A DNA stretch of 64,000 bases from Pocillopora damicornis (taxonomy: Eukaryota): positions 1,178,001 through 1,242,000 of the forward strand of contig NW_020847248.1 of NCBI RefSeq assembly GCF_003704095.1. The letters are read 5' to 3'. Shown in pieces: positions 6,001 to 9,000 of this stretch (position 1 is its first letter; each line of letters starts with the position of its first letter). A program made the position numbers.

Positions 6001-9000
6001 TAGTGACTTAACCCTTTACTCCCAGAATTGATTAACATGTTACTTCTCCTTTTAATATCCACACTGTATTCCAGCAAACAGGTAACGAGAATAATCAAAC
6101 TCATCAGTGAGGTAGAAGTTTTTATCTTGATCTAACAACAAATTTTCATAACTGATTTACATGAAATGTGTAGCAGCTAGTAAGGAGAATTCACAATCAA
6201 ATCTTGGGATTTAAAGGGATAAAGTGATCCTTTAAACCCTCCTACACAAAGGACAGGAAAGGAAACCTCTCATGCTTGTGAAGGTGAATTTTAAAATGGG
6301 AAAATGACATCTAGGAGACTTTAAATTTTAATGTCTCTTTTGAGGGATACCTTACAAAACCATTCTCTTTCATTCATGTTAAGTTCTGTACTGTATGGTA
6401 GTCTCTAATGGACATTGTTGCACTGATACAGCTCCTTACTGCTGCAGTATAAGGCTTAGAGTTACTCTACCTGACATTCTTTGCTTTCTCTCTCAGTCGT
6501 TCAAAAGACATTGTTGAACCTCTCATCAAACCTCAGTGGTATGTGGACTGTAAGGAAATGGCAGATATGGCTGTGAAGGTACAGTGACCCATAACGTCCA
6601 CAATTGATATTAAATGCTGTCGTTATCCAAGTTGTGATACAGATAAACCTTTTTTTCTTTATCAACCTTCACTATTAGTGAGACCACTTTTTTCTGCAAA
6701 CATCTGTTTTAAGTGGCTAATTTTTTAGAATATGGAATATTTGAAATGTGGCATAAGTCACTAGAGTAAGGGGAAAAGCAACCAGTTCCTTCTATCTCAT
6801 ATCCTTATTACTGTTACCTGTGTGATTGAATACTGCTTCAATACTGATAATTGTGTCTGCAGGCAGTGCGAAATGGAGACTTGAAGATCATTCCAAGTAT
6901 ACATGAGAAAGTATGGTACGGCTGGCTTGAGAACTGTAGGTTAGTTATGCAAAAACTTATCTCTGTATTTACCACGATGATTGATCCTATAAATGGCTCT
7001 TTTTTTGTCAGCGAGGACTTGGTTCAAACTGGTTTTTGAAACTTCACACCAGGGAAGTGATGTTGTAATTTGCGCCAGACAGTGGTTTGTGGGAACAGAC
7101 TGCCATTTGTTCTTAACTACACCTCTTGGTTGACGACAAACTCACATCTGATCCTGTAACAAAAGCTCTTATTCTCAGCGTCTATCTTGTTAAGGCAGTT
7201 TAATTTTTTACCAACCTAAACAGTTTGCCCTTCTACTTTTAGTGTCATGTCATGAACCTCCTGCAAGCACGGGCGCGAGTTGATATACATTTTCTTTCTC
7301 TAGGGATTGGTGCATATCTCGACAGCTTTGGTGGGGTCATCGCATCCCAGCATTTTTTGTGACCATTGATGATCCAAGTGTCCCACCAGGAGAGGTAAGT
7401 TTTTTTTTAAAGATGATAACGAATACTAAAAGAACAATTGTAAACTGAACGTCAAAGATAATCCACGATTGCGGTGTTTTTGCTTTACTTCGCTTTGCGA
7501 TTGGCCCACAAAACTCGCGCCATTCTCTCAACCAATCAGAGGCAAACTAAAACCATTCACGACTTGGTCGCACGCGTTTTCCCGCGCTTTGGGGCAGTTT
7601 GGTTATTTTTACTTTGAATTCTTTTTGGCTCTTAAGAGAATTTTCCTTTCCTCTGTTTGCCGTCGGGATTACTTTAGTTTTGGTGACGACATTCAATCGA
7701 AAAGCGCTCCAATTATGGCAAGTAATACTGATAGGTACAAATCCCATTTTTAAAGTATTTTCTGTCTTTAGAATTTTACAGAGAGTAAGTTTGAAAATTT
7801 ACTTTAGAATGCTCCGCGCATCGGATTGTTCCGTCCAGTAATTTTAATTGTCTGTCGTTGTCACGGTCATTTTCTAAAATATCAGTTACATTCGACGTTT
7901 CTCTTTTTCAGGATACTGATGGCAAATACTGGGTCAGGTAATGAAAAAAATTTATGTCCGCCAAAAAAAGAGAAAAAAAGAAGACAAAAATATTTAGGGG
8001 AAAATGAAAGGCAACAAGCAGGATTTTAATCTTCGTTATTGTGATCCTATTGTGTCGATTTTGTTTCAGTGGTCGCACCGAAGAGGAAGTATTGAAAAAA
8101 GCTGCAGAAAGGTTCAATGTAGCCCCCGAGAAGATCACTTTGAAACAAGGTAGTAATTGTTGTGATACCTGTTATGCATCCCCAGCCCTTGAAAATCCTG
8201 CCTGATCTCGTTCTTAACTTGTGTGTCCTGGTTTATTGCAGACGAAGATGTTTTGGACACGTGGTTCTCCTCCGGCTTGTTTCCTTTCTCCATATTTGGT
8301 TGGCCAGAAGAGGTTAGTTATCACATTTCGTGTGAGAACCTCAAGTGGAATTTTTTATTGGGTGTTGAATGTTATCGGAGGAGGCATCGGTCTTGTGTCA
8401 CTTTGCTCGGAAAACTCGCATCAATTACCGAAAGAATCAGAAACGAATACCAATTCCGACTGTCACTCACGTTTTCCCGGGCATGAACCCTTTTGCTTAT
8501 ATCTAGTTTGAGTTCTCATTGGCTTCTCGGTGTATGTACCTTTATTATGATTAGCTGTTGTAGTTTTGAATACTGCAGCTCCTCTGGGTGTGCTTCCATA
8601 AAGTGAAAATATCATTGTCGAAGGAATTTTTCATCTTTAATGTAACTAAGTGCATTTTATGGTTTATTTTTGACCCACGAGTTTTCAGTGAAGAGGAAGT
8701 GATGTTGTAATTTGCGCCAGACAGTGGTTTGTGGGAACAGACTGCCATCTGTTCTTGACCACACTGCTCGGTTGACGACCAATTCAATTCTGATCCTCTT
8801 TAACGAGAATGCCATATGAGTTTTTACTCTTGATGAGGGTTTTAAAACAGTCCCTCATAGAACAACCGTTAGCAAAGTAGGGACAAGACATCTACATTGA
8901 AATCCCTTTCTACTTTCTTTTCATTGCATTTCCTTTCTTAATAGACTGACGATTACAAGGTATTTTACCCTGGTACGTTGTTGGAGACTGGACATGACAT

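What the first reader, a model, noticed from the sequence alone, without database searches (positions are those of the whole stretch)
7050..8800. Two U16/SNORD16-like C/D snoRNAs hosted in valyl-tRNA synthetase introns
Seen: a segment of about 105 nt occurs twice (7050-7156, 8691-8800), nearly identical over boxes C, D', C', D and the guide. Each copy has its own terminal stem and the flanks have diverged, which is the pattern expected from selection on an RNA. Guide GTAATTTGCGC plus D' CAGA would direct 2'-O-methylation of the first A in 18S GCGCAAAUUAC by the D+5 rule (human Am484, yeast snR87 site). Established: vertebrate U16 is hosted in RPL4. Inference: a host switch to a tRNA synthetase gene plus intragenic duplication, coupling rRNA modification to VARS expression.
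Basis: partly seen in the sequence, partly recalled or inferred. Interest (0 to 1): 0.72.

Follow-up and report, generated by a model that had tools for sequence, protein, structure and literature searches.

The report
Two U16-like snoRNAs in VARS introns
Two introns of a stony-coral valyl-tRNA synthetase gene each carry a copy of a small guide RNA that resembles U16/snR87, the snoRNA that directs one deeply conserved methylation of 18S ribosomal RNA; it is an ordinary kind of gene found in a host gene that differs from the vertebrate one.

Summary
A 103-nt block occurs twice on the + strand (7053-7155 and 8695-8797). The copies are identical at 93 of 103 positions, and their flanks show no detectable similarity.

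Both copies align end to end with Rfam SNORD16 (RF00138) at 39.8 and 39.9 bits. This is below the curated cut-off of 45 bits, so nothing is listed at gathering level. The match is still significant: E = 3.2e-4 for the whole window.

- Box C, the 11-nt guide, D', C' and box D carry none of the 10 differences.
- Each copy has a terminal stem whose outer part is built from copy-specific sequence.
- Both lie in the sense orientation in introns of a valine-tRNA ligase gene. Its best-resolved exons are 100% identical to the Stylophora pistillata protein.

The best reading is two intron-encoded box C/D snoRNAs that guide 2'-O-methylation of the 18S site equivalent to human Am484 and yeast Am436. Expression, methylation and conservation in other corals could not be tested.

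Host changes, and duplicate copies in two introns of one host, are already documented for snoRNAs. Chicken U16 is one example. This is therefore a new member of a known kind and of modest interest.

The parts
7053..7155 (+). Copy 1 of the U16-like box C/D snoRNA (conserved block). With its terminal stem it spans 7050-7156.
   Evidence: Repeat family D1. Rfam SNORD16 39.8 bits, model positions 1-100 of 100, at 7053-7154. 5-bp terminal stem 7050-7054 with 7152-7156 in the centroid fold.
8695..8797 (+). Copy 2 of the U16-like box C/D snoRNA (conserved block). With its terminal stem it spans 8689-8802.
   Evidence: Repeat family D1. Rfam SNORD16 39.9 bits at 8695-8796. 9-bp terminal stem 8689-8697 with 8794-8802.
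7057..7063 (+). Box C GTGATGT (copy 2: 8699-8705). The seventh base is T, as in the Rfam SNORD16 consensus AUGAUGu.
7065..7075 (+). 5' antisense guide GTAATTTGCGC (copy 2: 8707-8717). T7071 (T8713) is the fifth base upstream of D'.
   Evidence: Identical to the upper-case Rfam consensus GUAAUUUGCG. No differences between the copies.
7076..7079 (+). Box D' CAGA (copy 2: 8718-8721). It differs from CUGA at one base.
   Evidence: Aligned to consensus CUUA at the same model columns.
7082..7120 (+). Internal hairpin between D' and C' (copy 2: 8724-8762). Inner stem 7091-7099 with 7106-7114; outer stem 7082-7087 with 7115-7120.
   Evidence: Rfam structure line, single-sequence folds and RNAalifold. 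Three of the 10 differences fall on these pairs and all three keep a standard pair (G-C/G-U or U-A/U-G).
7130..7136 (+). Box C' TTGACGA (copy 2: 8772-8778).
   Evidence: Matches the Rfam consensus UGaCGA. Identical in both copies.
7148..7151 (+). Box D CTGA (copy 2: 8790-8793).
6940..7303 (+). Host intron 1 (GT...AG, 364 nt) carrying copy 1. The 3' end of the snoRNA block lies 148 nt from the 3' splice site.
   Evidence: Read from the sequence. Flanking exons 6863-6939 and 7304-7394 match P0005 residues about 520-544 and 545-575.
8313..8944 (+). Host intron 2 (GT...AG, 632 nt) carrying copy 2. The 3' end of the snoRNA block lies 147 nt from the 3' splice site.
   Evidence: Read from the sequence. 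Flanking exons 8242-8312 and 8945-9175 match P0005 residues about 611-636 and 635-711.
1..15423 (+). Host gene, valine-tRNA ligase (VARS). It is cut at the window's 5' end, from about residue 150 of a 1089-aa protein.
   Evidence: Exon-by-exon matches. Six exon matches are 100% identical to the NCBI-named Stylophora pistillata protein P0005.

Best explanation
The two blocks are paralogous, intron-encoded box C/D snoRNA genes of the U16 (SNORD16)/snR87 type in a stony coral (Stylophora pistillata or a very close relative).

Inferred mechanism, from established knowledge of intronic box C/D snoRNAs:
1. Each copy is transcribed as part of the valine-tRNA ligase pre-mRNA.
2. The box C/box D kink-turn, closed by the terminal stem, recruits the core proteins (SNU13, NOP56, NOP58, fibrillarin).
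3. After splicing and debranching, exonucleases trim the intron back to the protein-protected RNA of about 100 nt.
4. The 11-nt guide upstream of D' pairs with 18S rRNA, and fibrillarin 2'-O-methylates the adenosine opposite the fifth guide base upstream of D'. This is the site equivalent to human Am484, yeast Am436 and Arabidopsis Am438.

The sequence upstream of box D differs at 4 positions between the copies and probably guides nothing, or nothing shared.

Shown here: the repeat, the motifs, the match to the SNORD16 model, the stems and the intronic sense location. Inferred: expression, snoRNP assembly and the methylation itself.
For: 1. Both copies match Rfam SNORD16 over the whole model (positions 1-100 of 100) at 39.8 and 39.9 bits. 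E is 1.1e-5 for the 2.2-kb search and 3.2e-4 for the whole window, both strands. The only other hit with E <= 1 is an unrelated miRNA model at E 0.98.

2. The similarity goes beyond the guide.
- The fungal model Afu_514 shares essentially box C, the guide and box D, and scores only 17.8 and 15.0 bits.
- SNORD16 adds the C' box UGACGA, the internal hairpin, and the unusual U at box C position 7.

3. The pattern of constraint fits a functional RNA.
- 0 of 10 differences fall in the 34 box and guide positions, against 10 in the other 69 (Fisher p = 0.028).
- All 3 differences on internal-hairpin pairs keep a standard pair.
- The region upstream of box D, which varies between the copies, is also lower-case (variable) in the Rfam consensus.

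4. The terminal stems extend into non-homologous flank sequence in both copies: 5 bp in copy 1 and 9 bp in copy 2. The five extra pairs of copy 2 have a chance probability of about 0.007.

5. Both copies are in the sense orientation in GT-AG introns of a housekeeping translation gene. They lie 148 and 147 nt from the 3' splice site.

6. A simple box C/box D + stem scan finds 3 candidates on the + strand and 0 on the - strand of the window, and two of the three are these copies. Twenty shuffles gave a mean of 0.65 for both strands together.

7. The literature supports the function and the arrangement.
- U16 depletion lowers Am484, and U16 is hosted in RPL4 (PMC3035437, passages).
- The site is methylated in Dictyostelium, yeast (snR87), human (U16) and Arabidopsis (AtU16) (PMC8817022 Table 1).
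- Chicken U16 also uses an 11-nt 5' guide and has 2 copies in two introns of one host (PMC2653536, table passage).
Against: - Neither copy reaches Rfam's gathering score of 45 bits, so the default search lists nothing.
- D' (CAGA), C' (UGACGA) and box C (ends in U) each differ from the canonical box by one base.
- The folds are not more stable than shuffled sequence. For the 119-nt stretches z = -0.28 and -1.64, and 71 and 17 of 200 shuffles fold at least as well.
- With two sequences there is no compensatory (two-sided) change: 0 of 32 predicted pairs.
- The first 54 positions are 54 of 54 identical, against 39 of 49 for the rest. Outside the boxes this is 0 of 31 against 10 of 38 (p = 0.0015). 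That could reflect gene conversion rather than selection.
- The distance of about 148 nt to the 3' splice site is about twice the 70-80 nt I recall as optimal in mammals (recalled, not from a call).
- No expression data, no coral 18S sequence and no second coral genome were available.
Confidence: 0.8

Rival explanations
1. At least one of the two copies is a silent or decaying duplicate (snoRNA pseudogene). It would be copied within the gene but not accumulate as a stable, functional snoRNP.
For: Copy 1 has the weaker terminal stem, 5 bp including one G-U. In the internal hairpin it has G-U or U-G where copy 2 has G-C or U-A. Its 119-nt fold is no better than shuffles (z = -0.28). One copy would suffice to guide one site.
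Against: Both copies keep all five box and guide elements without a single difference. They score the same against SNORD16, 39.8 and 39.9 bits. Both keep a terminal stem made from their own flank sequence. Both are in the sense orientation and at the same distance from a 3' splice site.
Confidence: 0.15
2. The RNAs are genuine box C/D snoRNAs for the same 18S site, but they are analogues rather than descendants of the U16/snR87 lineage. The likeness to SNORD16 would come from the shared target and generic boxes.
For: The score is below Rfam's family cut-off. Much of the identical sequence is the guide, which the invariant rRNA target dictates. The host gene differs from the vertebrate RPL4.
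Against: The guide-sharing fungal model Afu_514 gives only 15.0 and 17.8 bits, against about 40 for SNORD16. The match also shares several non-obligatory traits: U at box C position 7, the C' variant UGACGA, a long D'-C' spacer folded into a hairpin, and a loop in which 8 of 12 positions of copy 2 match the consensus UUGCCUGCuGuc. The guide family is reported from amoebae to plants, so inheritance is the simpler account.
Confidence: 0.1
3. The identity of the block, especially the perfectly identical 5' half, is kept by gene conversion between the two intronic copies or by a recent RNA-sized copy event. It would not reflect purifying selection on every conserved position.
For: 54 of 54 positions are identical in the 5' half against 39 of 49 in the 3' half. 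Outside the boxes this is 0 of 31 against 10 of 38 differences (p = 0.0015). Homology stops at the predicted RNA ends.
Against: There is no A-rich tail or flanking direct repeat at either copy (read), so there are no marks of retroposition. The differences that do exist avoid the C' and D boxes and keep the hairpin pairs. The copy-specific outer stems argue that each copy has been under its own selection. This account concerns history and is compatible with both copies being functional.
Confidence: 0.3
4. The block is a fragment of a dispersed repeat or mobile element that happens to carry box-like motifs.
For: The same gene's introns do hold an interspersed repeat. 7435-7706 has five other partial copies in the window.
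Against: The snoRNA block has only its two copies in 64 kb. It does not overlap that repeat. It matches a curated snoRNA model end to end. A genome-wide copy number could not be checked.
Confidence: 0.03

Closest known systems
Vertebrate U16 / SNORD16 (Rfam RF00138), hosted in RPL4 introns
   Same: Box C ends in U. The 5' guide core GUAAUUUGCG is the same, and D' sits at the same alignment columns. There is an internal hairpin, the C' box is UGACGA, box D is present, and the length is about 100 nt. It is intron-encoded and in the sense orientation. Its function is guiding 18S Am484 (PMC3035437).
   Different: The host gene is valine-tRNA ligase, not RPL4. The score is 5 bits short of the family's curated cut-off. 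D' is CAGA instead of the consensus CUUA. The hairpin and loop sequence are only partly alike.
Chicken GGgCD11 (U16 orthologue), 2 copies in RPL4 introns 1 and 3 (PMC2653536, table passage)
   Same: Two paralogous copies lie in two different introns of one host gene. The 5' guide is 11 nt and targets the same 18S adenosine.
   Different: The host gene differs. The listed chicken length is 124 nt, against about 103 nt here.
Yeast snR87 (18S Am436), Arabidopsis AtU16/snoR15 (Am438), Dictyostelium CD8 (Am432), Aspergillus Afu_514
   Same: The target site is the same (PMC8817022 Table 1). Afu_514 shares box C, the guide and box D with the coral copies. snR87 is noted for a non-consensus D' (PMC3116282, passage), as here.
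   Different: Only weak sequence similarity outside the guide was measured, and only for Afu_514 (15.0 and 17.8 bits). I recall that yeast snR87 is independently transcribed rather than intronic; this comes from no call.

Membership tests
Box C/D snoRNA (class) | Box C (RUGAUGA-like) near the 5' end and box D (CUGA) near the 3' end, brought together by a short terminal stem | tested here: met
   GTGATGT and CTGA are present in both copies. Terminal stems are 5 bp and 9 bp. A motif + stem scan recovers both copies, against 0.65 hits expected per shuffled window.
Box C/D snoRNA (class) | Stable RNA of about 70-120 nt bound by fibrillarin, NOP56, NOP58 and SNU13 | not testable with these tools
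SNORD16 / U16 (Rfam RF00138) | Score at or above the curated gathering cut-off (45 bits) | tested here: not met
   39.8 and 39.9 bits, with 0 hits at gathering level. The E-values are nevertheless 1.1e-5 (2.2 kb) and 3.2e-4 (64 kb) with full model coverage. This cut-off is an operational threshold, not a biological trait.
SNORD16 / U16 / snR87 functional family | A 5' antisense element upstream of D' complementary to the 18S site equivalent to human A484 | tested here: met
   The guide GTAATTTGCGC is identical to the consensus GUAAUUUGCG and D' sits at the same columns. The link from U16 to A484 comes from PMC3035437. The coral 18S itself was not on hand, so target presence rests on the reported conservation of this methylated site from amoebae to plants.
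SNORD16 / U16 / snR87 functional family | C' box variant UGACGA and an internal hairpin between D' and C' | tested here: met
   Rfam alignment and structure line, folds.
SNORD16 / U16 / snR87 functional family | A conserved accessory element that forms extra base pairs with 18S next to the target (PMC3116282) | tested here: inconclusive
   In copy 2 the loop and 3' strand of the hairpin match the consensus UUGCCUGCuGuc at 8 of 12 positions. Pairing with coral 18S could not be computed without that sequence.
SNORD16 / U16 / snR87 functional family | 2'-O-methylation of the predicted 18S adenosine that depends on the snoRNA | not testable with these tools
   This needs RiboMeth-seq or primer extension, and depletion of the snoRNA.
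Vertebrate U16 locus | Residence in an RPL4 intron | tested here: not met
   The host is valine-tRNA ligase. The host gene does not define the RNA family. Trichoplax snoRNA hosts are likewise not conserved with human (PMC2655684, passage).

The most novel reading that the evidence does not exclude
In stony corals, and perhaps in cnidarians generally, the guide for the universally conserved 18S Am484-equivalent site would live in the valyl-tRNA synthetase gene rather than in RPL4, as two anciently duplicated copies. Their near-identical placement 147 and 148 nt upstream of the 3' splice site would reflect a lineage-specific positional rule for intronic snoRNA processing, about twice the mammalian optimum. 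Their diverged box D-proximal sequences would have been freed to acquire separate targets.
Probability: 0.15. Interest if true: 0.45.

Novelty: new member of a known kind. Interest (0 to 1): 0.25.

Why it matters
The finding adds a probable cnidarian representative to one of the most widely conserved rRNA methylation guides, U16/snR87. It also gives a clean example of the same snoRNA family living in a different translation-related host gene, an aminoacyl-tRNA synthetase instead of a ribosomal protein gene.

Because the copies score just under Rfam's cut-off, annotation that applies that cut-off would miss them. They would therefore be useful seed sequences for widening the SNORD16 model beyond its present reach.

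None of this changes how snoRNAs are thought to work. Host turnover and intragenic duplicates are well documented.

In the papers I could search, no paper holds both 'SNORD16' and 'Cnidaria' (0 papers). Among the 15 papers shown for a search on snoRNA plus three coral genera, only one, a piRNA review, mentions snoRNA at all.

Tried and rejected
- **Rfam at gathering level, whole window:** 0 hits. The E-value mode was needed to see the SNORD16 matches.
- **Residual homology in the intron flanks:** none found. This covered in-register identity and local alignment against 500 shuffles.
- **Marks of retroposition:** reading searches shows no A-rich tail or flanking direct repeats.
- **Thermodynamic stability as evidence:** not informative. 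z-scores run from -0.28 to -1.64.
- **Compensatory changes:** none are possible to score with two sequences. 0 of 32 pairs changed on both sides.
- **Further snoRNAs in the window:**
  - The Rfam E-value scan adds nothing credible.
  - My motif scan gave one extra candidate at 13686-13810 (+). It has no Rfam match and is within chance expectation, so it is not claimed.
- **tRNA scan:** 0 genes.
- **Literature on hosts of U16 in invertebrates:** nothing relevant found.
  - PMC3511168, PMC3412847 and PMC13736004 have no mention of U16, SNORD16 or RPL4.
  - PMC2655684 has no mention of U16 or SNORD16.
  - PMC4344503 has no mention of snR87 or A436.
  - Searches for snoRNA with valyl-tRNA synthetase or aminoacyl-tRNA synthetase hosts gave only listings that looked irrelevant, and I did not open them.
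- **Comparison with other anthozoan genomes, this coral's RPL4 and its 18S:** not possible.
- **Spliced model of the host gene:** the exons were searched singly. One exon went to the protein database, and a named reference protein was run against the window. The joined spliced model was not built or searched.
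Full report
**Observation**

The stretch 6900-8950 was read directly. The repeat finder reports one long direct repeat in 6000-10000: 7053-7155 and 8695-8797, 103 nt, 90% identical, 1642 nt apart. My own count is 93 of 103 identical, with the ten differences at core positions 55, 63, 66, 71, 72, 75, 86, 89, 93 and 94.

| Element | Sequence | Copy 1 | Copy 2 |
|---|---|---|---|
| Box C | GTGATGT | 7057-7063 | 8699-8705 |
| Guide | GTAATTTGCGC | 7065-7075 | 8707-8717 |
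| D' | CAGA | 7076-7079 | 8718-8721 |
| C' | TTGACGA | 7130-7136 | 8772-8778 |
| Box D | CTGA | 7148-7151 | 8790-8793 |

The repeat is not a chance match and is not part of a window-wide repeat.
- A 23-nt pattern with up to three mismatches occurs exactly twice in the window. None of 100 shuffles reached two matches.
- blastn of 7040-7170 against the window returns only itself and copy 2.

Outside the block the two introns are unrelated.
- In-register identity is 8%, 17% and 20% over 50, 100 and 148 nt on the left. It is 36%, 27% and 22% on the right.
- Local alignment scores are reached by 357 of 500 (left) and 216 of 500 (right) shuffles.

**What the block is**

At Rfam's gathering thresholds the whole window gives no hit. 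With E-value reporting, both copies match SNORD16 (RF00138) from model position 1 to 100 of 100.
- The scores are 39.9 and 39.8 bits, against a curated cut-off of 45.
- E is 1.1e-5 when 2.2 kb is searched and 3.2e-4 for the full 64 kb on both strands.
- In the whole-window scan the only other match with E <= 1 is an unrelated miRNA model at E 0.98.

The alignment shows identity to the upper-case consensus in several places:
- box C, including the family's unusual U at the seventh position;
- the guide GUAAUUUGCG;
- the C' box UGaCGA;
- box D.

The long D'-C' spacer folds into the hairpin that the model expects. A fungal family that shares mainly box C, the guide and box D (Afu_514) scores only 17.8 and 15.0 bits on the same stretches. 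About half of the SNORD16 score therefore comes from features other than the guide. I read this as homology with the U16/snR87 lineage, just beyond the reach of a model whose cut-off these sequences miss by 5 bits.

**Structure and constraint**

Single-sequence folds give each copy a terminal stem that brings boxes C and D together.
- Copy 1: 7050-7054 pairs with 7152-7156 (5 bp, one of them G-U).
- Copy 2: 8689-8697 pairs with 8794-8802 (9 bp).
- The inner GGA/UCC pairs lie in the shared block. The outer pairs are made from sequence that is not homologous between the copies.
- Five extra pairs by chance have a probability of about 0.007.

RNAalifold on the two copies predicts 32 pairs. None has a two-sided change, which two sequences could hardly show. 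The three differences that fall on the internal hairpin all keep a standard pair.

The ten differences avoid the 34 box and guide positions (0 of 34 against 10 of 69, p = 0.028).

Two results do not help the case.
- The folds are no more stable than shuffled sequence. z = -0.28 and -1.64 for the 119-nt stretches, and 71 and 17 of 200 shuffles fold at least as well. This is usual for box C/D RNAs but is no support.
- The 5' half is perfectly identical (54 of 54) while the 3' half is 39 of 49. Outside the boxes this is 0 of 31 against 10 of 38 (p = 0.0015). That mosaic may mean extra functional sequence after D', for example an accessory pairing element. It may equally mean gene conversion within the block.

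**Host gene**

Stop-to-stop frames on the + strand between 1 and about 15400 spell the conserved parts of a class I valyl-tRNA synthetase.

One exon (8945-9175, 77 aa) was searched on its own against the protein collection. It is 100% identical to the NCBI protein named valine--tRNA ligase-like [Stylophora pistillata] (P0005, 1089 aa). It is 86% identical to the Nematostella enzyme.

tblastn of P0005 against the window places residues 150-1089 on the + strand from 3 to 15423 in 26 pieces, six of them at 100% identity. The window is therefore from this stony coral or a very close relative. It is not human.

The exons were handled one by one. The joined spliced model was not built or searched.

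Read from the sequence and these matches:
- Copy 1 lies in the GT-AG intron 6940-7303, between exons 6863-6939 and 7304-7394.
- Copy 2 lies in the GT-AG intron 8313-8944, between exons 8242-8312 and 8945-9175.
- Three introns without such a block lie between them (exons 7912-7937 and 8070-8149).
- Both copies are in the sense orientation. Their 3' ends are 148 and 147 nt from the 3' splice site.

**Target**

Counting back from D', the fifth base is T7071 (T8713). In the duplex between the guide and its reverse complement, this base faces the first A of the run of three. The Rfam alignment puts the coral CAGA on the same columns as the consensus CUUA that follows the guide, so the measuring point is homologous.

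The rule that the nucleotide opposite the fifth position upstream of D or D' is methylated is established knowledge (recalled, not from a call).

Papers seen as passages:
- U16 depletion in HeLa cells lowers 18S Am484, and U16 lies in an RPL4 intron with three U18 copies (PMC3035437). See also PMC5612246.
- The same site is listed as Dictyostelium Am432 (CD8), yeast Am436 (snR87), human Am484 (U16) and Arabidopsis Am438 (AtU16) (PMC8817022, Table 1).
- snR87 and U16 share a conserved accessory pairing with 18S next to the target, and snR87 has a non-consensus D' (PMC3116282).

I could not compute pairing with the coral's own 18S, because no coral rRNA is on hand.

**Mechanism**

The best-supported account is the standard one for intronic box C/D snoRNAs:
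1. The snoRNA is transcribed together with the VARS pre-mRNA.
2. The core proteins assemble on the C/D kink-turn.
3. The RNA is released by splicing, debranching and exonucleolytic trimming.
4. Guide-directed methylation of 18S by fibrillarin follows.

Only the sequence features are shown here. The steps themselves are inferred from established knowledge.

**Comparison with what is known, and novelty**

Host genes of snoRNAs change over evolutionary time. The Trichoplax annotation paper notes that its snoRNA hosts are not conserved with human and cites host switches within vertebrates (PMC2655684, passage).

Duplicate copies in separate introns of one host are common. Chicken U16 itself is listed with two copies in RPL4 introns 1 and 3 and an 11-nt 5' guide (PMC2653536, table passage).

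So the arrangement here is a familiar one in a different host gene, a translation-related one like many snoRNA hosts. Whether VARS or RPL4 is the older host cannot be said from this window.

Searches for prior description:
- No paper holds both 'SNORD16' and 'Cnidaria' (0 papers).
- A search on snoRNA plus three coral genera showed 15 papers (of 2,847 holding any two of the four terms). Only one of those 15, a piRNA review, mentions snoRNA.
- Searches for snoRNA with valyl-tRNA or aminoacyl-tRNA synthetase hosts gave listings that looked irrelevant and were not opened.
- Supplements were not consulted.

**Verdict**

The identification as two U16-like intronic box C/D snoRNAs in a VARS gene is well supported by computation (confidence 0.8). 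The evolutionary story (a host switch with a direction, selection versus conversion, coupling to VARS expression) remains inference.

This is a new member of a known kind. Interest is about 0.25.

Noticed in passing
window 7155-7303 and 8797-8944: The two snoRNA blocks end 148 and 147 nt upstream of their 3' splice sites, although the intervening sequences share no similarity and the introns differ in length (364 and 632 nt). This may be coincidence, or a positional constraint on processing.
   Followed up: partly
window 7053-7106 versus 7107-7155 (and 8695-8748 versus 8749-8797): The conservation is mosaic. The 5' half is 54 of 54 identical and the 3' half 39 of 49, including 27 identical bases after D' that are not box or primary guide. 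This is compatible with an accessory pairing element or with partial gene conversion.
   Followed up: partly
window 7435-7706 (+); copies at 13797-14071 (-), 54435-54541 (-), 25922-26101 (+), 24359-24463 (-), 18661-18710 (-): An interspersed repeat of about 270 nt sits in the VARS intron between the two snoRNA-bearing introns. It recurs five more times in the window at 68-81% identity. It is unrelated to the snoRNA block.
   Followed up: partly
window 13686-13810 (+): A third box C/box D + 5-bp stem candidate (ATGATGT ... CTGA, 125 nt) lies in another VARS intron. It has no Rfam match and is within chance expectation (0.65 per shuffled window).
   Followed up: partly
window 17698-18249 (-), 34676-35218 (-), 58367-59113 (+): The neighbouring genes include an ABCA-type transporter on the minus strand (Pfam R1_ABCA1 and ABC2_membrane_3 in two long frames). 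A gene with a SAPC2_N domain lies on the plus strand. 3 of the 12 long frames scanned had a Pfam hit.
   Followed up: no
window 869-968, 4262-4622, 16377-16386: There are three runs of N (471 bases in all). The second lies inside the VARS gene between matched exons. They were left as they are.
   Followed up: no
window about 15890-15960 (+): A G-rich low-complexity run lies just downstream of the VARS stop. It reads as a string of glycines in two frames.
   Followed up: no
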